A stretch of 64,000 bases of DNA. Origin: Lachnospira sp. UBA3790 (GTDB taxonomy: Bacteria; Bacillota; Clostridia; Lachnospirales; Lachnospiraceae). Shown piece after piece: positions 3,831 to 21,957 of this stretch. A model generated the notes under the pieces. That model saw nothing but the letters and a program-made list of their open reading frames with translations. It searched no databases and had not been told where the DNA came from. The translations under genes and the position numbers were made by a program. Position 1 is the stretch's first letter. The number at the start of each line of letters is the position of its first letter. The stretch is taken from positions 168,601 to 232,600 of the forward strand of contig DFEY01000002.1 in assembly GCA_002369135.1 (NCBI GenBank), written 5' to 3'.

Positions 3831-4047
3831 TTGTTTTTCTCCTCTCGTTAATGAAAAAATACGTTAGTAATATAAGATGGCATAATGACATAAAGACAGT
3901 TATTCCATCTTAGTACAATAATTATATAAAGTATTTATATTTTATTAAAGTGTATACATTCAAAACGGTATCATTTTTTGAGTGGGGTGTTGTTTTATAT
4001 TTAATTTTTATTTGCTAAATAATTCCATGCTTATCCCTAAGCATAAA

Positions 4048-4079
4048 AATAACCCCCGGACTTTCGTCCGAGGGTTATT
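4048..4079 (-). terminator. Intrinsic terminator after the giant gene and peptide gene
   Basis: Minus strand AATAACCCTCGGAC-GAAA-GTCCGGGGGTTATT followed by TTT; 14-bp stem with one G:U pair and a GNRA loop. Confidence 0.85.
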
Positions 4080-4105
4080 GAACTTAACTTGTTTGATCTA
4101 TTATT

Positions 4106-4252
4106 CTAGTACCAATCTGACCAATCGTCGTCATCATCATTAGCTGCTGTAGGCTTTCCAGGATCTTCAGATGGTGATGGACTAGTTTTGATAACATCTA
4201 AAATGTCAAACTCTTTAAAGTCCACTTCTGGTTTAATATATAAATCTTTCAT
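4106..4252 (-). CDS. 48-aa acidic peptide MKDLYIKPEVDFKEFDILDVIKTSPSPSEDPGKPTAANDDDDDWSDWY (below the ORF-track length cutoff)
   Basis: ATG at 4252 and TAG at 4106-4108. RBS AGGAGG overlaps the TAG of the giant gene. It lies between that gene and its terminator. Confidence 0.85.
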   Translation of the reverse strand: MKDLYIKPEVDFKEFDILDVIKTSPSPSEDPGKPTAANDDDDDWSDWY

Positions 4253-4264
4253 GTCTCTACCCTC

Positions 4265-7200
4265 CTATTCTTCCTCGTAATCCTTACAGTAGTCAACGAT
4301 TTCTTTCTTCCAACTAGCTAATTTATCATAAGCTGTCTTGTCATTGAATACCTGAGTTGCAATCCATTTAACGCTACGTGGAGTAGTCGTATCACTGTAT
4401 ACAACTTGTGATTCACCATCTACATAGTTAACAATCACATATCCCCTTGATAAGAAGTTTCTAGGAATATTGTAATCTTTAATATCAACTATACCACAAG
4501 CGAATGATCCAGGTTGACCTGTAATCCATTTTCTTGTCTTCTCAGAATTGTTCTGTGCATTGATTAAGTAATCGTACATTTCTGCCTTCTCGATTGTCAT
4601 ATCTTCACCTAGAAGGTCATAGTATGTATCCTCTGCACATATTAGCATACCTGTCTGGAATGCATCTGAACTCAATATATTTGTATCACTTTCTTCGTTA
4701 ACTGTCAACTTACCTAGGAATCTCATACCTCTCTGGTCTTCACCTTGCTTGTAGTACATTGAAACCTTATCAGTCTGTTGCATGTTAACTTCGTTGATTG
4801 AAATGAAGTTTACATTTCTATTCACTGTGTACTCAGCACCTGGTTTGTAGAGATCATCTGTCACTCCTTGTCCCTCACCATCAGTGTACTCTAGTAGGTA
4901 ACCGATAGCTGCTGTATCAGGAAGTGTAATCTTTGTTCCTGCAGGAACTGTGCCACCAGGATTTCCATCTACTGTCCATGTATAATCTGGAACATTAACT
5001 GTTTCAAGATATAGATCTGCCTGGATGTTTGGAATAGTCGCACCTGGAGCATATTCTGTCTGAGTAGCTGTGTCAATAAACTTAGTTACTCCTGGCATAT
5101 CTGTTGGAGTAGTATATCCTGCTCCCTCATCAACTGTTCCTTGCTGTTGTACACCATCAATGTAAACATTGAACGCTCTTTCAATCTTGTAATCCTTATT
5201 ACCATCTACTGTAATAGTTGCTGTAGGAACGTATGTACCTGTAGTACCGTTGATACCTGTAAAGTCCTTAATGTGATCAACCTGGCCAACTGTTGTTGGG
5301 AATGTGTATGTGCTTCCAAGTTTCATTTCATCGGACTTCAATTCTGTCTGTCCATCTGTATTGTAAATCTTAACTAGATATACAGATGTAACTGAAATGT
5401 CGTCATTTACTGTGTAACCTGTACCTGTTTGGTACTTAGTACCAGTACCATCAACAAAGTAAATTGCGTCGTTGTAAGCAGTTGATGTTGGGAATGTGTA
5501 TGTATCTCCATCGTATACTGTAGCAACATCTACTCCATCAATTGTAATTGTGTGCTGAGGTACCATTTCAATCTGGAATGTCATACTCTTATCAACACCA
5601 CTAATTGTACCCTCTGGATTATATGTCTCTGTTGTTCCTTCAATTCCCTTGAAGTCTTGAACATGAGCATATGTTCCTGTAGCTGCTGGGAATGTAAAGT
5701 TATCACCCTTAGCAACATCAAATGTATCTAGTACTGTTTCTCCATCAGTTCCAACGATTGTTACTGTGTAAACTGATTTTACTGAGATATCTCCTGTAGG
5801 AGTCACTGTCTCTTCAGGGTCGTATGTATCTGTTGGGTCACTTACGTTTGCGAAGTGAGTAACTCCAGCATAATCTCCAGTAGCTGCTGGGAATGTGTAT
5901 GAATTTCCTTCAGTAACTGAATCAACTAGTTCTCCATCAATTGTTATAGTGTAAGTTCCCGCTGCTCTAGTAGCTTTAATAACAATATCACCAACAACAT
6001 CAATTTCATCACCTGGCTGTACTGGTTGATCATTGTATGTGTAAGATGCAATACCAGGAACATTAGGCACTGTATACTTGTCGCCAGTTTGTACGCTTAC
6101 TGGTCCTGCATATACTGTTGTTGGATCAGTAGCATCCACAACCTTAGCTGTGTAATTTCTAATCGCTGTTACGTAAATATCTCCATCAAAGTCAGCAAAT
6201 GGTATTGTATCACCTGGTTCATAATATACACCATTCGCCTCATCGTAGTACTTAATTACTCCAGTCTCTACTGGGAATGTGTATGTTTCACCTTCTACCA
6301 CGCTGCCGTCTTCTACATCATCTATAAATACTTTGTACTGTGGTGCGTAGAACTCCCAACTAATGTCAGTAATCTTAGCACCCGATGGCAAGTCACTAAA
6401 GTCAAATTGTACATGACCTAGGAATTCATTGCCTTGTACTGTAGGATCTATAGTTCTAATAGCATCGTCGTATACAAAGTCAATACCGCCATCTTTTGCA
6501 TAATCTTCATCACTGTGGCTATTGTATCCACTCTTAGTGTTGATAGTTCCGTTAGCCATATTTAGTCCACTGTGACTTGGATATCTATGTGGTTCTCCAA
6601 ATCCCTGCTGAACTAGGACAATACCCTTGCCCTGGCCAATTGATCCTTCAGCCTCACTTAGATCTACATTATAGTAGAATCTTAACTTGTAGTGGTTACC
6701 TGTCTTAAGTGGATTTCCATTTGTATCTGTTCCCACTGTTGTGATGTCTCCACCTGCATCTCTATTACCATAGAAGTAATCGTTAGGTATACGCAAGTGT
6801 TCTGCCCATCTAGTGTCTGATTCCGGACCAAAGTCTCCGTTTGTCTCATCAAGTCTGATGCTTGCTTGTGCAATAGCATCTTCGCCTGCTGCATAAACGC
6901 CGTTCTGGTAACTCATCCATCCATTGAAGTATGAGTTAGTGTATCCAAGTAGGACACCCTTTCCTAAAGTAGCGTTTGAAACAATAGGTGTGTAATCCTG
7001 ATGTCCGTCAAATCTACAATCATTAACTAGTGTGTAAACTTCTTCATCAGTTCTCTGATATTCTACCTTGAAGTTTGACAATACTGTACCAAGTGGTAAT
7101 GCTGTACCATCTTGTACTACAGTTCCACCATCTGCATATGTAGTAGGTGTCAAGCTCAAATATAGGTTATTAGGTTCAGTTGATCCTGGTCTGTAGTCTG

Positions 7201-10200
7201 TCTCTGGACATCTTGTAAATTTCTTCTGATATTTAACGTGATATAGTCCGTCGCTCTCATCATACATATCAGCTGTAACATCTATTCTCTCTGGTCTATT
7301 TGGTTCATATCCTTCGTGAGTAATATGAACTGTACCCATCTCAGTAGATGTGAACTCATATGTCATGTAGTAACTTGTATAATCACTTAGTTCTTTGTAT
7401 GCCTCTGTTGGGTTAGGTAGCTTAATCTGAGCACATGCTGGATCCCATCTTTCACCAGCACCTATTCTAACCTTAGGCTGACCTGCTGCAGTAAAGTCTG
7501 GGTCGTAGTATAGAACTGCTCCAGCTCCGCCCCATTGTCCTGCGAATATCTGCCAATCACGAGTACCAGAAACTGTTCTTCCCATTGTACCGTCCACATT
7601 TCTGAACTGGTATGAGAATGGTACATTAGTAATCTCGAACTGGTTGTCTGCAGGTCTGTTATCAGGTACTGCTACCCAGTTACCATCCTTAGTGAATGTA
7701 ATATCTGTAACTCTGAAGTTAGCACCTGTTGGTAGTTCGTCAAGTAAGAACTTAACATCGTTTGTTCCTCCATTATCTTCGCCCTTGAAGATGAATGCTG
7801 GAATTTCAAGTGTATTTTCTCCCTGAGTTAGTGGGAATCCATACTCTTCACCATCTACGTAAACATATAGTTTAGCATTTGGTGCTGTAGTTTCTGTAAT
7901 CTCTAATGTGATTGATCCTGTGTATGTCATCCATGGTTCTAGATCTGCGTTGTAGTCCATCAATGATGCTGATGTCCACCACCATCTATTCTCTGGAGTA
8001 ACAGGATCTCCATGCTCGTCAGTTTCCTGCTGTCCTACTGTGTTCTTTAAGTTGATTAAAGTACTTCCAATATTTGAAGTAGGTGTACCGTCTACCTGAT
8101 ACATTAACTTACCATACTGACCTGTATTTGGATCGTTGATAGCTTTCAATGTCCAAGGTGTGCCTGTTGGTGTAAAGTCTGTATCGTTAGGTACGTTTTC
8201 AAAATCACCATCCTGGTTAGTGAATGTAACACTTGAAACTGATAGTGAACTTCCCTTAGTTAATCCGTCTAGGAAGAATGTTACATCATCATCACTGCCA
8301 GTATACTCGAACGTATCTGTAGTGTATGAGCCAGTAGGTGTAGTTCCAACGTCAATAATTGAAGCGTTGTTATCAATTGCTACCTTCAATTCATCACCAG
8401 CAGCTCCTGATTTACCTGGAGCATCATCGTAATCATATACGATTGTAGCTGTGTATGAATGTCCAACTTCCATATTGTTCTTAGCGTAATCCTCAAGGAT
8501 TGCTAAGTTCCAGTCGTACTCTCCGCCTGGATTATTAACTCTCATCTTTGTGCTACCGATAGCTGCTGGATCACCAACAATATCGTAGTACATACTTCCC
8601 CAAGTAGTTGCACCATCATTGATTGGTTTCAATGTCCATGGTGTGCCTGTTGGGTTAAATCCTGCTGCACTTATAGGTACTTCATCCCATCCTGTTGGAG
8701 TGAATGTAATATCTGTTACCTGGAAGATTGAGCCCTTCTCCAATGAATCAAGTTCGAACATGATGTCATTCTTTCCAGCCTCAACTTCATAAGTGAACTT
8801 AGGAATGTCAATTGTGTATGTATTTGTTCCATTATTTAGGTTCAAGTTAGCTTCACCAGTATTAGCTGCTTCAATGATGTATCTTAGCTGTGGAGTCTTA
8901 CCTGCTTCAGCCTCACCTGCTGTGTAGCTTAATGTGATAGTGGCTGTGTACTCTCTACCATCTACTAGGTTAGCTAAGTAACCTTCTAGTGATGCTGTGT
9001 TCCAGTAGTAGTGGTTACCCATTGCTGTGTTGATAGGCTTAATCTGAACGCTTGATACGCCAGTGCCTGTCTTCTTGTATCTCATGTGACCCCAAGCTGT
9101 GCTGCCATCATTGTTAGCTGTGATTGTCCATGGGTCAGCGTCTACTTCGTCGCCCTTCACGTTAATCCAATCAGCATCCTGTTTTGTAAATGTGATTGAA
9201 GCAACATTGAAGATTGAACCTTTTTCTAATCCAGTAAGTTCGAATAAAATATCGTCTTCGCCCTTAGCTGCATCGTATACAAACTCATCAATTGCGATTG
9301 TGTTTGTACCATTTGTTAATGTTGTATCTTTCTCTCCGTCAAATGCTCCAGCGATTACAGTTCTAAGTTCAGGAGTCTTTCCTGGTGTAGCTTCGCCTGA
9401 AGTATAGTTAACAACGATACTTCCTGTGTATGAGCATCCGTCTTCTAATGTAGCTAAGTAATCTTTAAGTGTTGCTGTGTTCCAGTAGAAGTGCTCGCCT
9501 TCTGCTGCAGTGTTAAGCTTAATAGATGTGCTTGCTACGTCTGATGCTGTACCGTCAACCTTAACTGACATATCACCCCATTGCTGCTGGCCATCATTTG
9601 TAGCTACAAGTGTCCATGGAGTGTTGTTGCCCTGTGAATCTGTTGGTACAACTTCGTCGTTCTGTTCAATTCTCTCCCATCCAGTTGGCTCGAATGTAAT
9701 ATCTGTTACCTGGAAGATTGATTGTTTCTCTAGTCCGTCTAGTTCAAATTCAATGTCATCGTTTCCTGCACTTGCATCATAGATGAATTTGCCAAGATCG
9801 ATTGTGTATGTCTTTGAACCTTCGTCTAGATCTAAGTTACCTTCACCAGTATTAGCTGCAGCTACGATATATCTCAACTGTGGAGTCTTACCTGCTTCAG
9901 CCTGTCCTGCTGTGTACTGAACTGTAATTGTTCCTTCGTATTCTTTGCCGTTCTCTAAGTTAGCTGTATCACTTAAGTAATCTAGTAACTTAGCATTGTT
10001 CCAGTAGAAGTGCTCTCCTACTGCTGTGTTAATAGGCTTAATCTCAACACTTGATACTCCAGTACCTGTCTGTTTGTATCTCATGTGACCCCATTGAGTA
10101 ACGCCATCATAGTTGGCTGTCAATGTCCATGGGTCTGGGTTAGCTTCATCGCCCTTAACGTTTGTCCAGTCAGCATCCTGTTTTGTAAATGTGATGCCTG

Positions 10201-13200
10201 TTACCTGGATGATTGCGCCTTCCTCTAATCCATCAAGTTCGAACAAGATATCCTTGTTTGCAGCTGATGAATCATATAGGAATTCGTCAATTGAAATTGT
10301 GTTTGATCCGCTTGTTAAAGCAGTATCCTTCTCACCTGTGTTTGCAGCTTCAATAACTGTTCTTAGTTCAGGGTCCTTACCTGCAACTGCTTCACCAGGT
10401 GTGTAATTTACAGTAATGCTACCTGTGTATGAGCATCCATCTTCTAATGTGGCTAAGTAGTTCTTCAAAGTAGCTGTGTTCCAGTAGTAGTGCTCGCCTA
10501 CATCTGTAGCGTTTGGTCTAATAAGTGTTGATGAAATATCGCTTGCTGTTCCATCTACCTTATAAGAAATATCTCCCCACTGCTCTTCGCCTGGAGTACT
10601 CTGGTCATTATTTGCCTCTAGAGTCCAAGGTGTGCCAGTAGGTACGAATTCTGTATTCTTAGGTATCTGTACCCATCCAGTTGGTGTGAATGTAATACTT
10701 GTCACCTTAAAGATTGACTGTTTCTCTAGTCCGTCTAGCTCGAACTCGATGTCGTCTGTTCCTGCACTTGAATCATATGTAAATGTAGGAAGATCGATTG
10801 AGTATGAGCCTGAGCCTGAGTCAAAGTCAAAGTTTGCTTCACCAGTTTCAGCCGCAGCCACGATGTATCTTAGCTGAGGAGTCTTACCTGCTTCAGCTGT
10901 ACCTGCTGTGTACTGAACATTGATTGTTGCATCATATTCAACGCCGTTTGTTAGATTTGCACCATCGCTTAGATAGTCTTCTAATACTGCGTTGTTCCAG
11001 TAGTAGTGCTCGCCTACTGCTGTGTTAATAGGTTTAATTTCAACACTTGATACACCAGTACCTGTCTGTTTGTATCTCATGTGACCCCACTGATCCACGC
11101 CATTGTAGTTAGCTGTCAATGTCCATGGAGTTGGGTTAGCTGAATCTCCCTTAACGTTTGTCCAATCAGCATCCTGTTTTGTAAATGTGATACCTGTTAC
11201 CTGGAAGATTGAGCCTTCTTCTAATCCGTCAAGTTCGAATAGAATGTCTTTATTCTCATCAGCTGAGTTGTAAATGAACTCGCTTATTGAAATTGTATTT
11301 GATCCAGCTGTTACTGCTGTATCCATCTCACCTGTTCCTGCAGCTGCAATAACTGTTCTTAGTTCAGGTGTCTTACCAGCAACTGAATCGCCTGCTACAT
11401 AGTTAAATGTAATGCTACCTGTGTATGAGCATCCATCTTCTAATGTAGCTAAGTAATTCTTCAAAGTAGCTGTGTTCCAGTAGTAGTGCTCGCCTACATC
11501 TGTAGCGTTTGGTCTAATAAGTGTTGATGAAATGTTACTTGCTGTTCCATCTACCTTATAAGACATGTTGCCCCATTGCTCTTCGCCTGGAGTACTCTGA
11601 TCGTTTGTAGCTGTTAGAGTCCAAGGTGTGCCTGTAGGTACGAACTCTGTGTTATTTGGAACCTTTGTCCATCCTGTTGGTGTGAATGTAATTTCAGTTA
11701 CCTTAAAGATTGACTGTTTCTCTAATCCATCTAGCTCAAATTCGATGTCGTCATTTCCTGCACTTGCATCATATGTAAATGTAGGAAGATCGATTGTGTA
11801 TGTCTTTGAGCCTTCGTCAAAGTCAAAGTTAGCTTCACCAGTCTCTGCTGCAGCCATGATATATCTCAACTGTGGAGTCTTACCTGCTTCAGCTTGTCCT
11901 GCTGTGTACTGTACTTTAATTTGACCATCATATTCAACGCCGTCTGTTAGATTTGCACCATCACTTAGATAGTCTTCTAATACTGCGTTGTTCCAGTAGT
12001 AGTGCTCGCCTACTGCTGTGTTAATAGGTTTAATTTCAACACTTGATACACCAGTACCTGTCTGTTTGTATCTCATGTGACCCCACTGATCCACGCCATT
12101 GTAGTTAGCTGTCAATGTCCATGGGTCTGGGTTAGCTTCATCGCCCTTAACGTTTGTCCAGTCAGCATCTAACTTAGTAAATGTAATATTAGATACCTGG
12201 AATACTGAACCTTCCTCTAGTCCATCAAGTTCGAACAAGATATCCTTGTTTGCAGCTGATGAATCATATAGGAATTCGTCAATTGAAATTGTATTTGATC
12301 CGCTTGTTAATGCAGTATCTTTCTCACCTGTGTTTGCAGCTTCAATAACTGTTCTTAGTTCAGGTGTCTTGCCTGCTACTACTGTACCAGGTGTGTAATT
12401 TACAGTAATGCTACCTGTGTATGAACATCCATCTTCTAATGTAGCTAAGTAATTCTTCAAAGTAGCTGTGTTCCAGTAGTAGTGTTCGCCTACATCTGTA
12501 GCGTTTGGTCTAATAAGAGTTCCGTTAACATCACTTGCTGTTCCGTCAATCTTATAAGACATATCGCCCCACTGCTCCTCACCTGGAGTACTCTGGTCAT
12601 TTGTAGCCTTTAGAGTCCAAGGTGTGCCTGTAGGTACGAATTCTGTATTCTTAGGTACCTGTTTCCATCCAGTTGATGTGAATGTAATGTCAGTTACCTT
12701 AAATACTGATTTCTTCTCTAGTGAATCTAATTCAAATTCTGCATAGTTATCTTCATTAGGATCATATGTGAATGCAGGAACGTCGATTGTGTATGTTCCG
12801 CTTCCACTTCCTAGTGCCATTGTTTCTTCGCTAATGCCTGCAACAGGAATGTTATATAGAAGTTCTGGTGTCTTACCACTCTGAGCTTCGCCTGCTGTGT
12901 ACTGTACAGTAATAACTGCTTCGTACTCTTCGCCTGCTGTTAATGTTTGGCCATAAGCCATATCTGTAAGCTTAGCAACGTTCCAATAGAAGTGATCTCC
13001 CATTGATACAGACATTGGTTTAACCTGTACGCTTGATACGCCAGTACCTGTCTGTTTGTATCTTAAGTGACCCCACTGCTCTTCGCCATCGTTGTTGGCT
13101 GTTATGATCCATGGAGTTGCTGTGTCTGAACCTCCCTTAACATTGGTCCAATCACTATCTTGTTTTGTGAAGTTGATTGCTGTTACCTGGAAGATTGAAC

Positions 13201-16200
13201 CTGCTTCTAGACCTGTAAGTTCGAACATGATGTCTTTTCTTGTGTCTGCAGCACTGTAGATAAACTCATCAATTGAAATTGTGTTTGTTCCACTTGATAA
13301 GTTAGTATCAATATTTCCGTCGTATGCACCCTCAATTATTGTTCTTAATTGTGGTGTTTTACCTACTTCTGCTGTACCAGGTGTGTAGTTAACAGTGATG
13401 CTTCCTGTGTATGAGTTTCCATCTTCTAAAGTATTTAGATAATTCTTTAGAGTAGCTGTCTCCCAGTAGAAGTGCTCTCCTACTGCAGATTTATTAATCT
13501 TAAGCTGTGTAGCTGATACGTTTGAAGCTGTTCCTGTTACCTTGTATGACATATCACCATACATACCTTGATCGCCATCTGATAGATCTGTATCTGGTAT
13601 CCAGTCAGCACGAAGTGTCCAAGGTGTTCCACTTGGATTTACTGTAGTTGGATTATCAGGATCAGAGTTCTGAGTTACTTTTGTCCAACCTGTATCTGTA
13701 AATGTGATATCAGTAACTTTAAATACTGATTTCTTCTCTAGTGAATCTAGTTCAAATTCAACACTGTTGTCTGCACTAGAATCATATGAGAATGCAGGAA
13801 CGTCAATTGTGTATGTTCCGCTTCCGCTATTCAATACCTTAGTAGCCTCACTTACTTCAGCAACAGGGATATTATATAGAAGTTCTGGAGTCTTACCTGA
13901 CTCAACTTCGCCTGCTGTGTACTGAACAGTGATAACTGCTGAGTATTCTTTGCCAGGTGTCAATGTCTGGCCGTATGTCATATCTGTAAGTTTAGCTGAA
14001 TTCCAATAGAAGTGATCTCCTATTGATGTGTTCATTGGCTTAACCTGTATGCTTGATACGCCAGTACCTGTCTGTTTATATCTTAGGTGTCCCCACTGAT
14101 CTGTGCCATTATTATTAGCAGTCAAGATCCATGGAGTTGCTGTAGCTGTTCCACCTTTAACGTTTGTCCAATCAGCATCTACTTCTGTGAAGTTAATTTC
14201 TGTTACCTGGAAAATTGAACCTTCCTCTAATCCGTCAAGTTCAAATAGAATGTCATTGTTCTCAGCTGTAGATTCGTAGATAAACTCATCTATTGCGATA
14301 GTATTTGATCCAGCTGTTACCGCTGTATCCATCTCGCCTGTTCCTGCAGCTGCAATAACTGTTCTTAGTTCAGGTGTCTTTCCAGCTACTGCTGTACCTG
14401 AAACGTAGTTAAATGTAATGCTACCAGTGTATGAATGACCATCTTGCAATGTTGCCAAATAGTTCTTCAACTCTGCCTTATTCCAGTAGAAGTGCTCTCC
14501 TACTGCTGTAGCATTAGGTTTGATTAGTGTAGATGAAATATTTGATGCTGTTCCATCTACCTTATATGACATGTTACCCCACTGCTCTTCGCCTGGTACG
14601 CTCTGGTCGTTTGTAGCTGTTAGAGTCCAAGGTGTACCTGTTGGTACAAATGCAGTGTTATTAGGAACCTTTGTCCATCCTGTTGGAGTAAATGTGATTT
14701 CTGTTACTTTGAAGATTGATGCCTTCTCTAGTCCATCAAGTTCAAATTCGATATCGTCTTTGCCTGCACTTGCATCATATGTAAATGTAGGAAGATCGAT
14801 TGTATATGTCTTTGAGCCTTCGTCAAAGTCAAAGTTTGCTTCTCCGGTGTTAGCTGCAGCCATGATATATCTCAACTGTGGAGTTTCACCTGCTTCAGCT
14901 TCACCAGCTGTGTACTGTACTTGAATCTGAGCATCATATTCAACGCCGTCTGTTAGATTAGCTACATCGCTTAGATAATCTTCTAGTACTGCGTTGTTCC
15001 AGTAGTAGTGGTTGCCCATTGCTGTAGCCATAGGCTTAATCTGAACACTTGCAACACCAGTACCAGTCTGTTTATATCTCATGTGACCCCATTGCTCTAC
15101 GCCATCATAGTTGGCTGTCAATGTCCATGGATTAGCTGTAGCTGTGTCGCCCTTAACGTTTGTCCAGTCAGCGTCTACTTCTGTAAATGTAATGCTATTT
15201 ACTTTGAAAATTGAATCTTTCTCTAGACCAGTCAAATCGAACAAGATGTCCTGATTTGCACTGTCTGAGTGATACATAAATTCGCTTAGGTTAATTGTGT
15301 ATGTTCCAGAACCACTGTTTAGAACCTTATCTGCTTCGCCTGTTCCAGCTTCTTCCACAACATATCTTAGTTTTGGAGTCTTGCCTGCTTCAGACTCTCC
15401 AGCAGTATAGCTAACACTAATAGTTCCTGTGTATGAATGACCATCTTGCAAACCAGCACCACCCTGTGCAACTGTTTTGCTTAGGTAATTCTTTAGAGTA
15501 GCCTTATTCCAGTAGAATGGTTCTCCCACTGCCACTAGTTTAGGCTTGATAGATGTGCCTGATACGCCACTTCCATCTACCTTGTACCACATATCACCAT
15601 ATAGACCCTGATCTCCATCTGAAAGATCTGTGTCTGGCTGATAATCTGCATATAGTGTCCAAGGGCTGCCTGAAGGTGTGACATCCTGATTAGGTTTAAC
15701 CTTATGCCATCCATCATCTACTTGAGTGAAAGTTACACTCTTAACAGTTAGTTCAGAATCTGCAACTAACTCGTCAAATAAGAATTTAAGATTTGCATCG
15801 CTTCCGTCAAAGACGAACTCTTGTAGTGAAAGAGTATTGTCGCCTTTTGCTAAGTCAAATGCTTGCTCTGTTCCACCAAATGGTGTAACAAATAGCTTTG
15901 TATCATTTCCGTACGCGTCTGTTAATGTAGCTTCTGAAGAATTTACTACTATGCTAGCAGTATATCTTTCATCTTCTTCTAGAATTGTTCTAATATTACC
16001 TGTTTGAGAAGTTCCATCAGCTTTGTTAACAGTAGCTTTGTAGTTTCCTGTTAAATCAGCGCTCATCCACCACCATCTCTGTGCTGGGTCCGTAATTCTA
16101 GCGCCCTGAGGAGTTCTCTCTGCTTCCCCAATAGCTCCTGCCATCTTGAATGTTATTCTTGCAGGATCATTTGTATCAACAGTTGTATCATGTTTATATC

Positions 16201-17398
16201 TGATATCTCCGTATGATGAAGAATTATCATTATTTACTGATGTACTCCAATTAGAGTTTGAAATAGCTGAGTCTATAGCAAATGGCGCTTTAGTCCAACC
16301 ATCATAAATACTATTAAATTCAATACTCTTAATGTAGAATTCAGCGTTTTGTGGCATCTCTACATAATCAAATTGGATATTATCATTATCTGCTGGGTTA
16401 TATTTGAACTTATCTATAGTAATTTCATTATCACCTGCAGTTAATGGAACATCATACTGATGGCCAAATGCAACTATTCTAATAGTATGACTACCTGATG
16501 TAGCAGTATCAGTATTGATTACGATTGTACCTGTGTAAGCTGAACCGTTATCTAGTCCAAGAGTAGTACCATAACCATATAGTGATGCTGAATCCCACCA
16601 CCAGTCATTAGAGTTATTGCCATCTACGTAATCTTTCTTTAGGTGCATTCTACTAATGTCAGAAACCTGCTTAGAAGAATCCATCTTGTAGTATTGATTA
16701 CCCCATGCAGTAGATGCATTGTTATTGGATCTTAGTGTCCATGGTGATCCTGCTTCTGGTACGAAGTCAGTATCGTCAAATGGACATCTCTGCCAGTCAT
16801 ATAGGTTAGTTGTTGTTTCTTTTGGTGTGAATGTAATACTTTCAATTTCGAAACCACCAACCTGTGCTCCGGCTGCTCCACCTTGTCCATTATTACCATA
16901 TCCAATAGCTAACACAAAATTAGCAGTGCCTGGTGTGACATCAGCTGTATATGTTAGTTCAGCGCCTGGACTTAGACTCTTACTAGTAGGTGCCATATCA
17001 GCAGTACCACCAGTAGTTCTAATATTAAGCGTTGTAGTCTGGGATGTAGTATAGTTGCTAGGTGCTTTAACATTGATAGTCATTGCGTATGATTGTCCTG
17101 CTGTCAAACCATACACAGACTTCAAGTCTCTTACTTTCCAGTAAGCACCGTCCCAACCATAAACATCGTGTGAATAAATGAAGCCATCTACTTTACTAGC
17201 ATCATTATATGATGCGGCTTCATTATTCCACTGGTTTTGGACGACTGTGTAAATCCATTGTCCAACCGTAGTTTCAGAGCCGATGACACAAGAGTTAGCC
17301 TGTGCTGCATCGACTTTGGACGGTGTGAACGTAATTCCAGTTACCGTCATTGCAATCGCTGCAACGATTGCAGTCAGTCTTTTCAAGTTCTTTTTCAT
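4265..17398 (-). CDS. Giant secreted multidomain surface protein (4377 aa), putative adhesin/glycan-binding scaffold
   Basis: 13-kb open frame. Start moved from the track's 17416 to ATG 17398 (RBS AAAGGAG; signal peptide MKKNLKRLTAIVAAIAMTVTGITFTPSKVDAA). Contains 18 ~165-aa repeats, a core domain, 8 short repeats resembling InlB-B/Flg_new repeats, and a ~175-aa C-terminal domain. No LPxTG, SLH or C-terminal TM segment seen. Confidence 0.9.
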   Translation of the reverse strand: MKKNLKRLTAIVAAIAMTVTGITFTPSKVDAAQANSCVIGSETTVGQWIYTVVQNQWNNEAASYNDASKVDGFIYSHDVYGWDGAYWKVRDLKSVYGLTAGQSYAMTINVKAPSNYTTSQTTTLNIRTTGGTADMAPTSKSLSPGAELTYTADVTPGTANFVLAIGYGNNGQGGAAGAQVGGFEIESITFTPKETTTNLYDWQRCPFDDTDFVPEAGSPWTLRSNNNASTAWGNQYYKMDSSKQVSDISRMHLKKDYVDGNNSNDWWWDSASLYGYGTTLGLDNGSAYTGTIVINTDTATSGSHTIRIVAFGHQYDVPLTAGDNEITIDKFKYNPADNDNIQFDYVEMPQNAEFYIKSIEFNSIYDGWTKAPFAIDSAISNSNWSTSVNNDNSSSYGDIRYKHDTTVDTNDPARITFKMAGAIGEAERTPQGARITDPAQRWWWMSADLTGNYKATVNKADGTSQTGNIRTILEEDERYTASIVVNSSEATLTDAYGNDTKLFVTPFGGTEQAFDLAKGDNTLSLQEFVFDGSDANLKFLFDELVADSELTVKSVTFTQVDDGWHKVKPNQDVTPSGSPWTLYADYQPDTDLSDGDQGLYGDMWYKVDGSGVSGTSIKPKLVAVGEPFYWNKATLKNYLSKTVAQGGAGLQDGHSYTGTISVSYTAGESEAGKTPKLRYVVEEAGTGEADKVLNSGSGTYTINLSEFMYHSDSANQDILFDLTGLEKDSIFKVNSITFTEVDADWTNVKGDTATANPWTLTANYDGVEQWGHMRYKQTGTGVASVQIKPMATAMGNHYYWNNAVLEDYLSDVANLTDGVEYDAQIQVQYTAGEAEAGETPQLRYIMAAANTGEANFDFDEGSKTYTIDLPTFTYDASAGKDDIEFELDGLEKASIFKVTEITFTPTGWTKVPNNTAFVPTGTPWTLTATNDQSVPGEEQWGNMSYKVDGTASNISSTLIKPNATAVGEHFYWNKAELKNYLATLQDGHSYTGSITFNYVSGTAVAGKTPELRTVIAAAGTGEMDTAVTAGSNTIAIDEFIYESTAENNDILFELDGLEEGSIFQVTEINFTEVDADWTNVKGGTATATPWILTANNNGTDQWGHLRYKQTGTGVSSIQVKPMNTSIGDHFYWNSAKLTDMTYGQTLTPGKEYSAVITVQYTAGEVESGKTPELLYNIPVAEVSEATKVLNSGSGTYTIDVPAFSYDSSADNSVEFELDSLEKKSVFKVTDITFTDTGWTKVTQNSDPDNPTTVNPSGTPWTLRADWIPDTDLSDGDQGMYGDMSYKVTGTASNVSATQLKINKSAVGEHFYWETATLKNYLNTLEDGNSYTGSITVNYTPGTAEVGKTPQLRTIIEGAYDGNIDTNLSSGTNTISIDEFIYSAADTRKDIMFELTGLEAGSIFQVTAINFTKQDSDWTNVKGGSDTATPWIITANNDGEEQWGHLRYKQTGTGVSSVQVKPMSVSMGDHFYWNVAKLTDMAYGQTLTAGEEYEAVITVQYTAGEAQSGKTPELLYNIPVAGISEETMALGSGSGTYTIDVPAFTYDPNEDNYAEFELDSLEKKSVFKVTDITFTSTGWKQVPKNTEFVPTGTPWTLKATNDQSTPGEEQWGDMSYKIDGTASDVNGTLIRPNATDVGEHYYWNTATLKNYLATLEDGCSYTGSITVNYTPGTVVAGKTPELRTVIEAANTGEKDTALTSGSNTISIDEFLYDSSAANKDILFELDGLEEGSVFQVSNITFTKLDADWTNVKGDEANPDPWTLTANYNGVDQWGHMRYKQTGTGVSSVEIKPINTAVGEHYYWNNAVLEDYLSDGANLTDGVEYDGQIKVQYTAGQAEAGKTPQLRYIMAAAETGEANFDFDEGSKTYTIDLPTFTYDASAGNDDIEFELDGLEKQSIFKVTEITFTPTGWTKVPNNTEFVPTGTPWTLTATNDQSTPGEEQWGNMSYKVDGTASNISSTLIRPNATDVGEHYYWNTATLKNYLATLEDGCSYTGSITFNYVAGDSVAGKTPELRTVIAAAGTGEMDTAVTAGSNTISISEFIYNSADENKDILFELDGLEEGSIFQVTGITFTKQDADWTNVKGDSANPTPWTLTANYNGVDQWGHMRYKQTGTGVSSVEIKPINTAVGEHYYWNNAVLEDYLSDGANLTNGVEYDATINVQYTAGTAEAGKTPQLRYIVAAAETGEANFDFDSGSGSYSIDLPTFTYDSSAGTDDIEFELDGLEKQSIFKVTSITFTPTGWVQIPKNTEFVPTGTPWTLEANNDQSTPGEEQWGDISYKVDGTASDISSTLIRPNATDVGEHYYWNTATLKNYLATLEDGCSYTGSITVNYTPGEAVAGKDPELRTVIEAANTGEKDTALTSGSNTISIDEFLYDSSAANKDILFELDGLEEGAIIQVTGITFTKQDADWTNVKGDEANPDPWTLTANYDGVTQWGHMRYKQTGTGVSSVEIKPINTAVGEHFYWNNAKLLDYLSDTANLENGKEYEGTITVQYTAGQAEAGKTPQLRYIVAAANTGEGNLDLDEGSKTYTIDLGKFIYDASAGNDDIEFELDGLEKQSIFQVTDITFEPTGWERIEQNDEVVPTDSQGNNTPWTLVATNDGQQQWGDMSVKVDGTASDVASTSIKLNTAAEGEHFYWNTATLKDYLATLEDGCSYTGSIVVNYTSGEATPGKTPELRTVIAGAFDGEKDTTLTNGTNTIAIDEFVYDAAKGEDDILFELTGLEKGSIFNVASITFTKQDADWINVKGDEVDADPWTITANNDGSTAWGHMRYKKTGTGVSSVQIKPINTAMGNHYYWNTASLEGYLANLVDGREYTATITLSYTAGEAEAGKTPQLRYIIEAANTGEANLNLNNGTNTYTIDIPKFTYEVEAGKNDIMFELDSLEKGSIFQVTDITFTPTGWDEVPISAAGFNPTGTPWTLKPINDGATTWGSMYYDIVGDPAAIGSTKMRVNNPGGEYDWNLAILEDYAKNNMEVGHSYTATIVYDYDDAPGKSGAAGDELKVAIDNNASIIDVGTTPTGSYTTDTFEYTGSDDDVTFFLDGLTKGSSLSVSSVTFTNQDGDFENVPNDTDFTPTGTPWTLKAINDPNTGQYGKLMYQVDGTPTSNIGSTLINLKNTVGQQETDEHGDPVTPENRWWWTSASLMDYNADLEPWMTYTGSITLEITETTAPNAKLYVYVDGEEYGFPLTQGENTLEIPAFIFKGEDNGGTNDVKFLLDELPTGANFRVTDITFTKDGNWVAVPDNRPADNQFEITNVPFSYQFRNVDGTMGRTVSGTRDWQIFAGQWGGAGAVLYYDPDFTAAGQPKVRIGAGERWDPACAQIKLPNPTEAYKELSDYTSYYMTYEFTSTEMGTVHITHEGYEPNRPERIDVTADMYDESDGLYHVKYQKKFTRCPETDYRPGSTEPNNLYLSLTPTTYADGGTVVQDGTALPLGTVLSNFKVEYQRTDEEVYTLVNDCRFDGHQDYTPIVSNATLGKGVLLGYTNSYFNGWMSYQNGVYAAGEDAIAQASIRLDETNGDFGPESDTRWAEHLRIPNDYFYGNRDAGGDITTVGTDTNGNPLKTGNHYKLRFYYNVDLSEAEGSIGQGKGIVLVQQGFGEPHRYPSHSGLNMANGTINTKSGYNSHSDEDYAKDGGIDFVYDDAIRTIDPTVQGNEFLGHVQFDFSDLPSGAKITDISWEFYAPQYKVFIDDVEDGSVVEGETYTFPVETGVIKYYDEANGVYYEPGDTIPFADFDGDIYVTAIRNYTAKVVDATDPTTVYAGPVSVQTGDKYTVPNVPGIASYTYNDQPVQPGDEIDVVGDIVIKATRAAGTYTITIDGELVDSVTEGNSYTFPAATGDYAGVTHFANVSDPTDTYDPEETVTPTGDISVKSVYTVTIVGTDGETVLDTFDVAKGDNFTFPAATGTYAHVQDFKGIEGTTETYNPEGTISGVDKSMTFQIEMVPQHTITIDGVDVATVYDGDTYTFPTSTAYNDAIYFVDGTGTKYQTGTGYTVNDDISVTSVYLVKIYNTDGQTELKSDEMKLGSTYTFPTTVGQVDHIKDFTGINGTTGTYVPTATITVDGNKDYKIERAFNVYIDGVQQQGTVDEGAGYTTPTDMPGVTKFIDTATQTEYAPGATIPNIQADLYLETVNVPDYTWTVDGNPGGTVPAGTKITLPDTAAIGYLLEYTDGEGQGVTDDLYKPGAEYTVNRNVNFISINEVNMQQTDKVSMYYKQGEDQRGMRFLGKLTVNEESDTNILSSDAFQTGMLICAEDTYYDLLGEDMTIEKAEMYDYLINAQNNSEKTRKWITGQPGSFACGIVDIKDYNIPRNFLSRGYVIVNYVDGESQVVYSDTTTPRSVKWIATQVFNDKTAYDKLASWKKEIVDYCKDYEEE
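4795..6337 (-). repeat. Eight ~60-70-aa short repeats (InlB B-repeat/Listeria-Bacteroides-repeat-like)
   Basis: Recurring Y.(V/I).IDG.....V..G..YTFP......Y.PG..I....D pattern in the translation. Confidence 0.6.
7685..16798 (-). repeat. Intragenic array of 18 ~165-aa domains; units 3-16 alternate A/B with ~1-kb period
   Basis: A units start (T/D)GW..V...P.GTPWTL and B units start (A/S)DW(T/I)NVKG...PW. 10968-11128 is identical to 11964-12124 (161 nt, offset 996 nt). Confidence 0.92.
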
Positions 17399-17590
17399 CT
17401 CATTTTCTCCTTTCAAGTAAAGAACAATTCTGTCCCAAAAAGGGCCATAGTAACACCAATTGGGCGCACTAGGCCCAATGATACATATTATTGTATCTTA
17501 TATCTTATAATAGTATACTTTTTTATGTAAGTGCATATATTTTAGGTCGGTATGATTTTTAGTTTCAACACGCTAAAGCGGTATAAAATT

Positions 17591-18818: not shown

Positions 18819-18889
18819 AATTTCCCCTTTTGACCTATAACAACTTTGAAGCTCTTCGAATAATTTCAAAGAGCTTCATTTTATTGTTA

Positions 18890-20716: not shown

Positions 20717-21880
20717 TTATTTTTTAACTTTTTTGCTCTTCTTAGCACTCCACTTACCGTAAAGTTTTGCGCCGTTAACTTTCTTATAAGCTCTAGCCTT
20801 AACCCAATACTTAGTATTTTTGTCTAGACCTTTAATTGTTAGTTTTACTTTCTTTGTATTCTTCTGCTCGTAACCGTCAAAGGATTTGCTGTCGCACCAT
20901 CTTACCTGGTATCCTGCTACCCCTTTAATCTTTTTAAGTTTTACGATTAGTTTTCTTTTCTTCTTATATTTAAGTGATTTAATCTTTGCCTTTGCCGGCT
21001 TAGATACTGTAGTTGGTTTTACTGTTGGTTTAACTGTAGGCGCTGGAGCTCCATCCTGATAATAACGAACATAGTCTACATTCATTGTTAGAGGAAGTGT
21101 TCCTGAAGGTGGTTCGCCACCAGCTAAGTTTCCGCCTACGGCAAAGTTAAGTAGGATATGATAGTCATCGTTCAATACTGACCTGTCACCATCGCCCACA
21201 TCTGTCGTCTTGAAATAACCATATTCTTTACCATTTAGATAGAAACTAAGTTCTTCTCCATTTCTATAAACACCATATGTGTTCCAACCTGTCTTGTCAT
21301 ATCCTTCTGGATTAGTTTGACTATATTTATAAACATCCGCTCCAGTTGGACTAGGGAAGTGAATAGTTCCCTGTGCGTATGAAGCAATATTAAATGATTC
21401 TTCTATGTCTATCTCACCACAAGCTGGCCATGTTTTTCCATTGTTTCCAAGCATCCAAAATGCTGGCCAAATACCTTGAGCTGAAGGAATCTTCATTCTT
21501 GCTTCAACATAACCAAGACCAACAGATACTTTTGCTTTGTTATTATCTCCGTCCCAAGTTCTAATACGGCCTGATGTATATTTCTTTCCTGCTATGTTTT
21601 CGTTTTTAGCTGTGATAGAAAGCATACCATCGCCCACAGTTACATTCTGAGCTCTGTACCACTGCTTTTCGTTATTGCCCCAGCCTGGAATTCCATACTG
21701 GCTACCATCACCTGTCTGGTATTCCCAGTAGTCCTGGTTTAGTGCATTTCCATTAAATTCATCACTCCATACAATATGCATATTTTTATAATCAATGTTA
21801 GATGGAGTATCTGCCATAACAATCGCACTCATTCCAAGTGTAAATGTTAATGTTGCTACCAATAGTAATAATTTTTTCAT
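20717..21880 (-). CDS. Secreted glycoside hydrolase family 16 (beta-glucanase/laminarinase-like) with Lys-rich FN3-like tail
   Basis: WSDEFNG, WPAFWMLG and catalytic GEIDIEE (ExDxxE) motifs. Start moved to MKKLLLL (ATG 21880, RBS AAGGAGG). Confidence 0.92.
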   Translation of the reverse strand: MKKLLLLVATLTFTLGMSAIVMADTPSNIDYKNMHIVWSDEFNGNALNQDYWEYQTGDGSQYGIPGWGNNEKQWYRAQNVTVGDGMLSITAKNENIAGKKYTSGRIRTWDGDNNKAKVSVGLGYVEARMKIPSAQGIWPAFWMLGNNGKTWPACGEIDIEESFNIASYAQGTIHFPSPTGADVYKYSQTNPEGYDKTGWNTYGVYRNGEELSFYLNGKEYGYFKTTDVGDGDRSVLNDDYHILLNFAVGGNLAGGEPPSGTLPLTMNVDYVRYYQDGAPAPTVKPTVKPTTVSKPAKAKIKSLKYKKKRKLIVKLKKIKGVAGYQVRWCDSKSFDGYEQKNTKKVKLTIKGLDKNTKYWVKARAYKKVNGAKLYGKWSAKKSKKVKK

Positions 21881-21957
21881 ATAGGTGTCCTCCTTGCTTA
21901 AGTCCGTCCTCACAATTTCCTATATATATTGTAAATAACAAAGTTTATGAAAATTTG

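What the first reader, a model, noticed from the sequence alone, without database searches (positions are those of the whole stretch)
7685..16798. 18-copy array of an unrecognised ~165-aa Trp-rich domain with strict A/B alternation
Seen: each unit keeps PW(T/I), WG.M.Y, an aromatic cluster before N/D/T-S/A-A and a terminal F.V..I.F strand. Units 3-16 alternate A and B types (7 pairs, ~332 aa each). Outer units carry WWW (DWWWDSA, RWWWMSA, RWWWTSA), while the expanded units carry mostly H(Y/F)YWN. Established: exposed Trp/Tyr platforms on beta-sandwiches are typical of carbohydrate-binding modules. Inference: a multivalent glycan-binding rod in which the A-B pair is the functional unit and the outer and inner units prefer different ligands. 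I could not assign it to a named CBM family.
Basis: partly seen in the sequence, partly recalled or inferred. Interest (0 to 1): 0.7.

Follow-up and report, generated by a model that had tools for sequence, protein, structure and literature searches.

The report
Giant surface protein of sugar-binding-like modules
A ruminant-gut bacterium with a small genome encodes a 4,383-residue secreted protein built mainly of 18 linker-less copies of a very rare module that folds like known carbohydrate-binding modules. The array grew by duplicating two-module blocks, so neighbouring modules stay dissimilar.

Summary
Window 4265-17416 (minus strand) is one 4,383-aa ORF with a Sec signal. Residues 198-3242 (window 7691-16825) are 18 contiguous 160-196-aa modules. 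Units 3-16 alternate strictly between two types: 41-54% identity between neighbours, 56-90% at lag 2.

No Pfam, NCBIfam or PDB sequence match reaches significance. Only 39 clusters in 1.84 billion representative proteins contain the module. All genome hits lie in a small-genome subclade of one rumen Lachnospiraceae genus.

An AlphaFold2 model of an A-B pair (pLDDT 95.5, pTM 0.85) matches CBM22 and CBM4 beta-jelly-rolls in Foldseek. So this is a new sequence family with a known carbohydrate-binding-module fold. In relatives the same module flanks an intact GH16 glucanase domain.

The rest of the protein is also non-catalytic: an N-terminal cap domain, two more jelly-rolls, 8 short repeats and an unknown C-terminal domain.

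Orthologues in two sister species carry 20 units, one extra B-A pair. At least one, probably two, other arrays in the family show their own period-2 pattern.

Best reading: a multivalent, rod-like glycan-binding surface protein, whose alternation is mainly a product of pair-wise duplication that keeps neighbours divergent. Carbohydrate binding, ligand identity and the A/B functional-unit idea remain untested.

The parts
17306..17398 (-). Sec-type signal peptide (MKKNLKRLTAIVAAIAMTVTGITFTPSKVDAA), read from the likely ATG start at 17398. The ORF as listed opens at a TTG at 17416.
   Evidence: sequence; this is the only hydrophobic 19-mer in the protein; promoter-like site at 17568-17539 and an upstream terminator at 17626-17591.
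16826..17305 (-). N-terminal cap domain U0 (aa 38-197), a divergent relative of the repeat unit.
   Evidence: 17-30% identity to the units and the same terminal strand FEIESITFT; hhalign against the family profile gives 70.9% probability, E 3.8e-5.
7691..16825 (-). Array of 18 linker-less ~165-aa beta-jelly-roll modules (aa 198-3242). U1, U2 and U18 are the WWW type with an acidic insert. U3-U16 are seven A-B pairs. U17 is divergent.
   Evidence: units. AF2 pLDDT 95.5, pTM 0.85. Foldseek matches CBM22 and CBM4; alternation; dN/dS 0.16 against the orthologue.
11681..12676 (-). The modelled A-B pair, U9-U10 (aa 1581-1912).
6347..7690 (-). Conserved 'core' (aa 3243-3690): two further all-beta, jelly-roll-like domains. 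This is the most conserved part of the family, with invariant GAGERWDPACAQ, RIPNxYFY and GGIDFxY.
   Evidence: 50% mean column identity against 22% for the units; second half homologous to the unit, 96.6%. AF2 pLDDT 82; Foldseek finds only CBM-like domains and no enzyme fold.
4772..6346 (-). About 8 short (~60-68 aa) 'YTFP' repeats (aa ~3691-4215).
   Evidence: motif spacing; no Pfam hit.
4268..4771 (-). C-terminal domain of unknown fold (aa ~4216-4383). It is conserved in family members. There is no LPXTG, transmembrane segment, SLH or dockerin.
   Evidence: tblastn 27-92% identity in relatives; no sorting signal and no hydrophobic tail; no Pfam hit.
4106..4252 (-). 48-aa acidic ORF ending DDDDDWSDWY, directly behind the giant gene and followed by a terminator at 4079-4048. 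It is probably co-transcribed.
   Evidence: An earlier scan note treats it as a separate finding; its function was not tested here.
3..3830 (-). Tandem paralogue (1695 aa in the genome). It has the same architecture but only 3 units, all WWWW type, and the same core, short repeats and C-terminal domain.
   Evidence: tails 40% identical over ~730 aa.
20717..21913 (-). Secreted GH16 glucanase gene three genes upstream. It has the catalytic motif EIDIEE and a basic C-terminal tail. It is context only, not fused to the units.
   Evidence: Pfam GH16 at 2.9e-12; motif.

Best explanation
The gene encodes a secreted, strongly acidic, non-catalytic cell-surface protein of an uncultured small-genome ruminant-gut Lachnospiraceae.

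SHOWN. It consists of a signal peptide, a cap jelly-roll, 18 directly abutting ~165-aa beta-jelly-roll modules, two more conserved jelly-roll-like domains, about 8 short repeats and an unknown C-terminal domain. The module is a new, lineage-restricted sequence family with the fold of the CBM4/CBM22 group of carbohydrate-binding modules.

INFERRED. Each module binds a polysaccharide, most plausibly a beta-glucan, because relatives place the module on both sides of a GH16 glucanase. The many copies would give avidity. The absence of linkers, together with a confidently predicted fixed A-B orientation, would make the array a stiff rod tens of nanometres long.

The A/B alternation is best explained by how the array grew. 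An ancestral unit duplicated and diverged into A and B. Two-unit blocks were then duplicated, in both the AB and BA registers. This let the array lengthen while every domain keeps a neighbour that is at most about 54% identical, as expected if near-identical neighbours promote inter-domain misfolding. The alternation does not need A and B to form an obligate composite binding site.
For: Architecture and repeats.

New family:
- No Pfam or NCBIfam hit.
- Per-unit Pfam scan of 117 family modules gives only scattered sub-threshold hits, several to CBM-like families: Endotoxin_C x3, CBM_56 x2, CBM_17_28, CBM_4_9, GH101_dom-5.
- PDB profile search gives only CelK CBM4 (3p6b) at E 0.028.
- 39 clusters in 1.84e9 representatives.
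- 0 of 200 other genomes of the order and 10 of 34 genomes of the genus, nine of them 1.1-1.7 Mb.

Fold:
- AF2 pLDDT 95.5, pTM 0.85.
- Foldseek: 4xup CBM22-1-CBM22-2 at E 1.4e-9; 7kwb SGBP-B; 2y64 CBM4-2 with TM 0.55 over 159 columns at 11% identity.

CAZyme context:
- Units flank a GH16 with an intact EIDILE motif in P0017 and in two genomes of the genus.
- A separate GH16 gene lies three genes upstream.

No catalytic domain anywhere in the protein.

Constraint: dN/dS is 0.16 between positionally orthologous units, against 0.29 for the tail.

Aromatic segment: an aromatic-rich segment before the 'xSAxL' strand is kept in nearly all 117 modules, in several subtypes. Trp is enriched threefold.

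Growth by pairs:
- Lag-identity pattern.
- U3-16 monophyletic with A and B subclades.
- Best paralogue pairs occur in both registers: 9-13 and 10-12 at 90% nucleotide identity; 4-10 at 86% and 5-11 at 83%.
- Orthologues in RUG13824 and RGIG10014 have one extra B-A pair, 20 units.
- An independent period-2 array exists in a 3018-aa homologue whose two types are not sister clades.

Neighbour-divergence rule: PMC8201768 and PMC4660218.

Reality and expression: DNA runs tile the gene with no differences, and metatranscriptome contigs of a 95-99% identical strain cover it.
Against: - No binding assay exists and no ligand is known.
- This protein itself has no catalytic domain, so the CAZy-style criterion is met only through relatives.
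- The jelly-roll fold is also used for protein binding. Meprin MAM, factor VIII C and reelin domains also appear among the Foldseek hits.
- TM-scores to single CBMs are moderate (0.51-0.55) and identity is 11-13%.
- I could not map the conserved aromatic residues onto the model, so many may be core residues.
- Units are much less conserved across the family (22% mean column identity) than the core (50%). Their number also varies (1-20 per protein). Both are typical of stalk domains.
- The A-B fixed differences (16 columns) are scattered rather than clustered at one site.
- Rigidity rests on pTM alone, because the PAE was not returned.
Confidence: 0.55

Rival explanations
1. Passive stalk (periscope-like). 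The units have lost, or never had, ligand binding and serve only as rigid spacers. Their number sets how far another part of the protein is projected from the cell: the N-terminal cap, or the conserved core.
For: - Copy number ranges from 1 to 20 among paralogues and orthologues.
- Units are far less conserved than the core.
- There are no linkers, and the pair model has pTM 0.85.
- The variable-length surface-protein class is described in PMC8201768.
Against: - Adjacent identity is 41-54%, not the 80% or more that defines periscope repeats.
- Units are positionally orthologous across species at 85-99% identity, with dN/dS 0.16, so the array is stable rather than rapidly varying.
- The same module flanks a GH16 enzyme, where a stalk role is unlikely.
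- An aromatic-rich surface-loop segment is maintained.
- There is no LPXTG anchor.
Confidence: 0.25
2. The A-B pair is an obligate functional unit, either a composite or a hetero-bivalent binding site, and the WWW-type outer units recognise a different ligand from the H(Y/F)YWN-type inner units.
For: - Strict alternation and gain or loss by pairs.
- A confidently predicted fixed A-B orientation.
- Distinct subtypes of the aromatic segment, with the WWW type always carrying a 12-25-aa acidic insert.
Against: - A and B both carry the same H(Y/F)YWN cluster. Their 16 fixed differences are scattered.
- Duplicated blocks occur in both AB and BA registers.
- Other arrays of the family alternate between quite different, non-sister types. 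This argues for a general structural or evolutionary cause rather than one specific composite site.
- Family members with 1-5 units show no pairing.
Confidence: 0.15
3. Non-carbohydrate adhesin or coat. The jelly-rolls bind protein or another cell surface (rumen protozoa, fungi, other bacteria or host), or form an envelope layer for a reduced-genome, possibly surface-attached bacterium.
For: - The family is restricted to the 1.1-1.7 Mb subclade of the genus and is expanded there, with 30-38 modules per genome.
- Protein-binding jelly-rolls are among the Foldseek hits.
- The C-terminal domain is unknown and a small peptide gene is coupled to the giant gene.
Against: - The top structural matches are bona fide CBMs.
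- GH16 fusions exist in relatives.
- No evidence bears on an epibiotic lifestyle.
Confidence: 0.1

Closest known systems
CBM4 / CBM22 family modules (Pfam CBM_4_9, PF02018). Examples: Paenibacillus barcinonensis Xyn10C CBM22-1-CBM22-2 (PDB 4XUP), Rhodothermus marinus Xyn10A CBM4-2 (2Y64), Clostridium thermocellum CelK/CbhA CBM4 (3P6B, 3K4Z).
   Same: Same beta-jelly-roll fold: Foldseek probability 1.0, TM 0.51-0.55 to single CBM4 modules, and the best E-value to the CBM22 tandem. The size is similar, about 160 aa. Like CBM4 in Thermotoga maritima Lam16A (from my own knowledge, and mentioned in PMC7848910), the module flanks a GH16 catalytic domain in relatives. There is a borderline profile hit to CelK CBM4 at E 0.028.
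   Different: No significant sequence match: 0 of 18 units, and 1 of 117 family modules at E 0.02 against a gathering score of 25.9 bits. Identity is 11-13%. There are 18-20 copies without linkers in a non-catalytic protein, whereas known enzymes carry 1-3 copies with linkers. Binding-cleft residues could not be compared. No binding data exist.
Periscope proteins and giant Gram-positive adhesin stalks (Sgo_0707 SHIRT repeats, SasG, Rib; PMC8201768).
   Same: A secreted surface protein dominated by a tandem array of folded domains. Copy number differs between paralogues and species. It is likely rod-like.
   Different: Adjacent repeats are 41-54% identical, not 80% or more. The array is positionally conserved across species. 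The fold is CBM-like rather than Ig, SHIRT or G5. There is no LPXTG anchor.
Non-catalytic surface glycan-binding proteins, e.g. Bacteroides thetaiotaomicron SGBP-B (PDB 7KWB).
   Same: A non-catalytic, multi-beta-sandwich, cell-surface protein thought to capture glycans. It is a top-5 Foldseek hit over both domains.
   Different: SGBP-B is a lipoprotein encoded in a Bacteroidota polysaccharide utilisation locus with 3-4 domains. Here the protein is from a Firmicutes-type organism with about 21 jelly-rolls and no such locus. There is no sequence similarity.
Super-repeat architectures that keep neighbouring domains divergent (titin Ig/Fn3 super-repeats, SasG E-G5 alternation); the neighbour-divergence rule (PMC4660218; Wright et al. 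2005, as cited in PMC8201768).
   Same: Period-2 organisation, with neighbour identity near or below 50% and much higher identity at lag 2.
   Different: Here both members of the pair are the same domain family and each other's closest relatives. The pattern arose independently in at least two arrays of the same family. No folding data exist.
CBM-like C-terminal domains of Bacillus thuringiensis Cry1 protoxins and Vip3 (fold comparison only).
   Same: Tandem CBM-like jelly-rolls give Foldseek E-values of 1e-7 to 1e-5 for both the A-B pair and the core.
   Different: There is no sequence similarity, no toxin domains are present, and the biological context is entirely different. The resemblance is only that of the shared jelly-roll fold.

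Membership tests
CBM4/CBM9/CBM16/CBM22 (Pfam CBM_4_9, PF02018) | Sequence match to the family HMM above its gathering score | tested here: not met
   The whole protein gives no hit at E<=1. Of 117 family modules scanned singly, one reaches E 0.02.
CBM4/CBM9/CBM16/CBM22 (Pfam CBM_4_9, PF02018) | Beta-jelly-roll (galactose-binding-domain-like) fold | tested here: met
   AF2 pLDDT 95.5. Foldseek: 4xup at E 1.4e-9; 2y64 with TM 0.55 over 159 columns.
CBM4/CBM9/CBM16/CBM22 (Pfam CBM_4_9, PF02018) | Ligand-binding cleft lined by conserved aromatic and polar residues on the concave sheet | not testable with these tools
   Model coordinates and structural alignments are not returned. I can only say that an aromatic-rich segment precedes strand 69-73 and aligns with the 'NKWSVQ' segment of CelK CBM4 in a borderline HMM alignment.
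Carbohydrate-binding module in the CAZy sense | A discrete fold found as a contiguous module within a carbohydrate-active enzyme | tested here: met
   This is met in relatives, not in this protein. Units flank a GH16 with an EIDILE motif in P0017, L033 (G204) and L032 (G227).
Carbohydrate-binding module in the CAZy sense | Demonstrated carbohydrate-binding activity | not testable with these tools
   This needs recombinant protein and binding assays.
Periscope proteins (PMC8201768) | Tandem repeats longer than 50 aa with at least 80% identity between adjacent copies | tested here: not met
   Adjacent identity is 26-54%. Only lag-2 copies reach 56-90%. The definition was read.
Periscope proteins (PMC8201768) | Repeat number varies between closely related strains | tested here: inconclusive
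   There are 18 units here against 20 in two sister-species MAGs. Those are short-read assemblies, one split over two contigs and one with a frame break. No within-species long-read comparison was available.
Sortase-anchored (LPXTG) Gram-positive surface proteins | C-terminal LPXTG motif followed by a hydrophobic segment and a basic tail | tested here: not met
   The only hydrophobic 19-mer is the signal peptide. The protein ends ...DYCKDYEEE. The LPDTA at aa 4165 lies inside a repeat.

The most novel reading that the evidence does not exclude
The module founds a new carbohydrate-binding-module family, invented and amplified (30-38 copies per 1.1-1.7 Mb genome) in one reduced-genome rumen Lachnospiraceae lineage. 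The 18-20-module rod would be a high-avidity beta-glucan tether that attaches the cell to plant, fungal or protozoal surfaces. A and B (and the WWW type) would read different glycan features, so the period-2 super-repeat would be both a folding-safe way to grow and a hetero-multivalent reading head.
Probability: 0.15. Interest if true: 0.7.

Novelty: new variant of a known kind. Interest (0 to 1): 0.45.

Why it matters
- If binding is confirmed, this would add a new CBM family. It has no Pfam, NCBIfam or PDB relative by sequence, and its specificity could be useful as a glycan probe.
- It would also show that a jelly-roll CBM fold can be used as the building block of a giant linker-less surface rod.
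- The family offers a clean natural test of the idea that tandem arrays can only grow if neighbours stay dissimilar. At least two arrays in one family independently adopted a two-unit super-repeat, and species differ by exactly one pair.
- It points to what a 1.6 Mb rumen bacterium invests in. About 1.5% of its genome encodes four proteins of this family, and that hints at an attached lifestyle.

Tried and rejected
- Tandem Repeats Finder sees no array. The units are too divergent at DNA level and the period exceeds 500.
- PDB profile searches gave only chance-level hits: fluorescent proteins at E 0.7, and CelK CBM4 at E 0.028.
- The search for related loci with the alignment failed because no stretch was conserved enough. 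With a single protein it found only the two sister-species MAGs.
- Literature searches for the MAG name and for rumen giant CBM proteins found nothing specific.
- I looked for model coordinates in the Python box to map aromatic residues.
- I considered that the conserved post-array core might be a hidden enzyme. I rejected this: it is all-beta, and Foldseek finds only CBM-like domains.
- I considered an assembly artefact or collapsed repeat and rejected it.
- I considered periscope-type hypervariable repeats and rejected that on adjacent identity and positional orthology.
- I looked for clustering of A-versus-B fixed differences. The 16 positions are scattered.
- An earlier-findings look-up by sequence returned nothing.
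Full report
**1. What is there**

The finding lies inside a single open reading frame, window 4265-17416 on the minus strand. It is 4383 codons from a TTG. An ATG six codons in (17398) starts a typical Sec signal peptide, MKKNLKRLTAIVAAIAMTVTGITFTPSKVDAA. That signal is the only hydrophobic stretch in the protein.

The gene has its own promoter-like site behind the terminator of the upstream gene. A 48-codon ORF and a strong terminator follow it.

It bounds an N-terminal domain (aa 38-197) and 18 consecutive units at aa 198-3242, which is window 7691-16825. Units abut directly (…ITFT|PTGW… and …ITFT|KQDADW…), with no Pro/Thr-rich linkers.

A profile built from the units finds each at E 1e-47 to 1e-74. 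W68, A71, L73, Y86, I90, F135, F148 and F166 are invariant across the 18 units. The WWW form is in U1, U2 and U18, and H(Y/F)YW(N/E) is in U4-U16.

Trp makes up 2.5% of the array against 0.86% in the genome's long ORFs, with exactly four Trp per inner unit. Every unit is strongly acidic, with net charge -9 to -20.

**2. The alternation**

Units 3-16 alternate strictly between two types.

| Lag | Protein identity, U3-U16 |
|---|---|
| 1 | 41-54% |
| 2 | 56-90% |
| 3 | about 47-54% |
| 4 | 57-90% |

In a maximum-likelihood tree of 117 modules from this and related genomes, U3-U16 form one clade (support 0.88). Inside it, type A (0.95) and type B (1.0) are separate subclades. So A and B are each other's closest relatives.

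The inner array therefore descends from one unit that duplicated, diverged and was then copied in two-unit blocks. The best paralogue pairs occur in both registers. Units 9-13 and 10-12 are 90% identical in nucleotides; 4-10 are 86% and 5-11 are 83%. The duplications are not recent, with dS 0.27-0.73. This explains why Tandem Repeats Finder sees nothing.

**3. Is it real?**

- The genome is a 1.62 Mb, three-contig assembly.
- Contigs from two DNA runs tile the entire gene at even depth with no differences.
- Metatranscriptome contigs from a 95-99% identical strain also cover it, so it is transcribed in vivo. The caveat is that such libraries can contain DNA.
- Runs that hold the sequence are sheep, goat, bovine and other gut metagenomes.
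- The nearest named records are rumen MAGs, labelled 'uncultured Lachnospiraceae bacterium RUG13824' and 'Eubacterium sp. RGIG10014' from yak reticulum.

**4. What the unit is**

By sequence the unit is unrecognised.
- Pfam and NCBIfam give nothing.
- A profile search of all PDB chains gives only chance-level or borderline hits.
- Scanning 117 family modules one by one gives only scattered sub-threshold hits, several to CBM-like families: Endotoxin_C, CBM_56, CBM_17_28, CBM_4_9 and GH101 domain 5.

The family is extremely rare. An exhaustive HMMER search of 1.84 billion cluster representatives finds 39 proteins, 32 of them below 1e-10. It is absent from 200 other genomes of the same order. It is present in 10 of 34 genomes of the same GTDB genus, nine of them the 1.1-1.7 Mb members, with up to 38 modules per genome.

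This genome has four genes of the family:
- the 18-unit giant;
- the 3-unit paralogue immediately downstream;
- two genes of 4 and 5 units on another contig.

With an alignment of 84 consecutive unit pairs, AlphaFold2 models the U9-U10 pair at pLDDT 95.5 and pTM 0.85. The model is all-beta. Foldseek against the PDB returns, in order:
- the tandem CBM22-1-CBM22-2 of Paenibacillus Xyn10C (E 1.4e-9);
- the Bacteroides surface glycan-binding protein SGBP-B;
- the CBM-like domains of Cry1 protoxins, Vip3 and GH101 enzymes;
- among single-domain targets, Rhodothermus CBM4-2, with TM 0.51-0.55, about 159 aligned columns and 11-13% identity.

The unit is therefore a new sequence family with the CBM4/CBM22-type beta-jelly-roll fold. 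The high pTM for a two-domain model suggests a defined A-B orientation. This is an inference, because the PAE was not returned.

**5. The rest of the protein**

*Core.* The 450 residues after the array are the most conserved part of the family. Mean column identity is 50%, against 22% for the units. GAGERWDPACAQ, RIPNxYFY and GGIDFxY are invariant. Only 20 proteins in a 5.8-billion-protein collection share this region. All are unnamed or 'hypothetical', and those that carry a name are from Eubacterium sp. MAGs.

I suspected a hidden enzyme. The AF2 model (pLDDT 82, pTM 0.81) is all-beta, and Foldseek again finds only CBM-like domains: Cry1, Vip3, EngBF, CBM4, BiXyn10A CBM and CBM16. Profile-profile comparison shows that the second half of the core is homologous to the repeat unit (96.6%, E 5.5e-10). 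The N-terminal cap is probably homologous too (70.9%).

*Short repeats and C-terminus.* About eight ~65-aa 'YTFP' repeats follow, then a conserved C-terminal domain of roughly 170-240 residues with no Pfam hit. There is no LPXTG or transmembrane anchor.

The protein is thus entirely non-catalytic and contains about 21 jelly-roll-type domains.

**6. Evidence on function**

(a) Fold: CBM-like, as described above.

(b) Context: in relatives the same module flanks a GH16 catalytic domain with an intact ExDxxE motif (EIDILE). The architecture is two cap domains, one unit, GH16, then three units. It is seen in a representative protein and in two further genomes of the genus. This mirrors the CBM4-GH16-CBM4 layout of Thermotoga maritima laminarinase 16A (my own knowledge; its CBM4 is mentioned in PMC7848910). 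A separate secreted GH16 gene lies three genes upstream in the window.

(c) Constraint: positionally orthologous units in the sister species are 85-99% identical, with dN/dS 0.16. That is tighter than the tail, at 0.29.

(d) Aromatic segment: an aromatic-rich segment just before strand 69-73 is kept in almost all 117 modules, in several subtypes:
- WWW, always with a 12-25-aa acidic insert;
- GEH(Y/F)YWN;
- SGW(L/F)xA(Y/W)S;
- D..YSLYAKL;
- GGxxEWNFA.

Runs of three or four Trp cannot all face the core. Whether they form a ligand platform or an inter-domain contact could not be checked without coordinates.

These points favour a multivalent glycan-binding role, with a beta-glucan as the first ligand to test. 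None of them shows binding.

**7. Why A/B?**

The orthologues in RUG13824 and RGIG10014 align unit by unit with this protein. The exception is one extra B-A pair (U8'-U9', 85-89% identical to U8 and U9) inserted after U9. That gives 20 units. Both are short-read MAGs: one gene is split over two contigs and the other has a frame break. So the count is probable, not certain.

A 3018-aa homologue in another species has its own period-2 array, with identity of 30%, 49%, 31% and 40% at lags 1 to 4. Its two types are not sister clades, and one of them groups with this protein's U17 at support 0.97. A third giant, of 2774/2805 aa, also alternates between two motif types. Its two clades are weakly supported (0.57-0.65), and its lag-identity pattern is partial at best: flat in the 2774-aa copy and only weakly period-2 in the 2805-aa copy, likely because some units went undetected.

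Period-2 expansion has therefore arisen independently at least twice in this family. A and B share the same aromatic cluster, and their 16 fixed differences are scattered.

The most economical explanation is that arrays grow by duplicating two-unit blocks because this keeps every neighbour at or below about 54% identity. That fits the reported rule that adjacent domains in large multidomain proteins are usually below 50% identical, which is thought to limit inter-domain misfolding (PMC8201768; PMC4660218). A specific A-B composite binding site is not excluded, but it is not required.

**8. Comparison with known systems**

- **CBM4/CBM22.** The protein works like, and probably derives from the same superfamily as, these modules. 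It fails the sequence criterion for membership, and its cleft could not be compared.
- **Periscope proteins and other adhesin stalks.** It resembles them in being a rod of tandem domains with variable copy number. It fails their defining feature of at least 80% identity between adjacent repeats, it is positionally stable across species, and it lacks an LPXTG anchor.
- **Surface glycan-binding proteins of Bacteroidota.** It resembles them in being non-catalytic and multi-sandwich. It is unrelated in sequence, anchoring and genomic context.

**9. Verdict**

The module is a new, very narrowly distributed family with a known CBM fold, and the CAZyme association in relatives makes glycan binding the best hypothesis (about 0.55).
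- The claims about exposed platforms, an A-B functional unit and different ligands for inner and outer units remain untested.
- Novelty: a new variant of a known kind. Interest is moderate (0.45). The main points are the possible new CBM family, the unusual use of about 21 jelly-rolls as a linker-less giant rod, and the recurrent two-unit super-repeat.

Noticed in passing
window 4106-4252 (-), terminator 4079-4048: A 48-aa ORF (MKDLYIKPEV...DDDDDWSDWY) sits 13 nt behind the giant gene's stop and is followed by a 14-bp-stem terminator. It looks co-transcribed. An earlier scan note treats it as a modified-peptide precursor. I only confirmed the ORF and the terminator.
   Followed up: partly
window 3-3830 (-); full gene at G000:C2:167346-172430: This is a tandem paralogue of 1695 aa with the same cap, core, short repeats and C-terminal domain but only three units. 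All three are of a WWWW type with a long acidic insert (AHDDD...VDQxDPxxWWWWNSA) that looks like a possible metal-binding loop.
   Followed up: partly
window 6347-7690 (-): The post-array core is far more conserved than the units. GAGERWDPACAQ, RIPNxYFY and GGIDFxY are invariant in 15 sequences. It is present only in the larger family members and absent from the two ~1100-aa paralogues on contig 3. It may be the family's real functional centre.
   Followed up: partly
window 20717-21913 (-): A secreted GH16 (EIDIEE motif, laminarinase-like WPAFWMLG) has a very basic Lys-rich C-terminal tail (…KPAKAKIKSLKYKKKRKLIVKLKK…). This is a different attachment solution from that of the giant protein.
   Followed up: no
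window 17652-18869 (-) and 18890-20695 (-): A transglutaminase-core protein (Pfam E 3e-15) and a 601-aa protein with one predicted membrane segment and no Pfam hit lie between the GH16 gene and the giant gene. I did not test for any link to surface-protein attachment.
   Followed up: no
L040 (G215 = RUG13824 contig 7), between the orthologues of U11 and U12: The orthologous giant gene is split into two frames of 2436 and 2412 aa inside the array. This could be a frameshift or a short-read assembly error, and I could not tell which.
   Followed up: no
genus-wide: Within one GTDB genus the module family is found almost only in the 1.1-1.7 Mb genomes (9 of the 10 positives; the tenth is a 2.4 Mb genome with a single weak match), at up to 38 copies per genome. 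It is absent from the 1.8-2.9 Mb genomes. So its expansion coincides with genome reduction.
   Followed up: partly
P0027 (relative, 1402 aa): In one family member, two units are fused to seven BspA-type leucine-rich repeats (Pfam E 2.6e-174). This is a typical cell-surface adhesin context rather than a CAZyme one.
   Followed up: no
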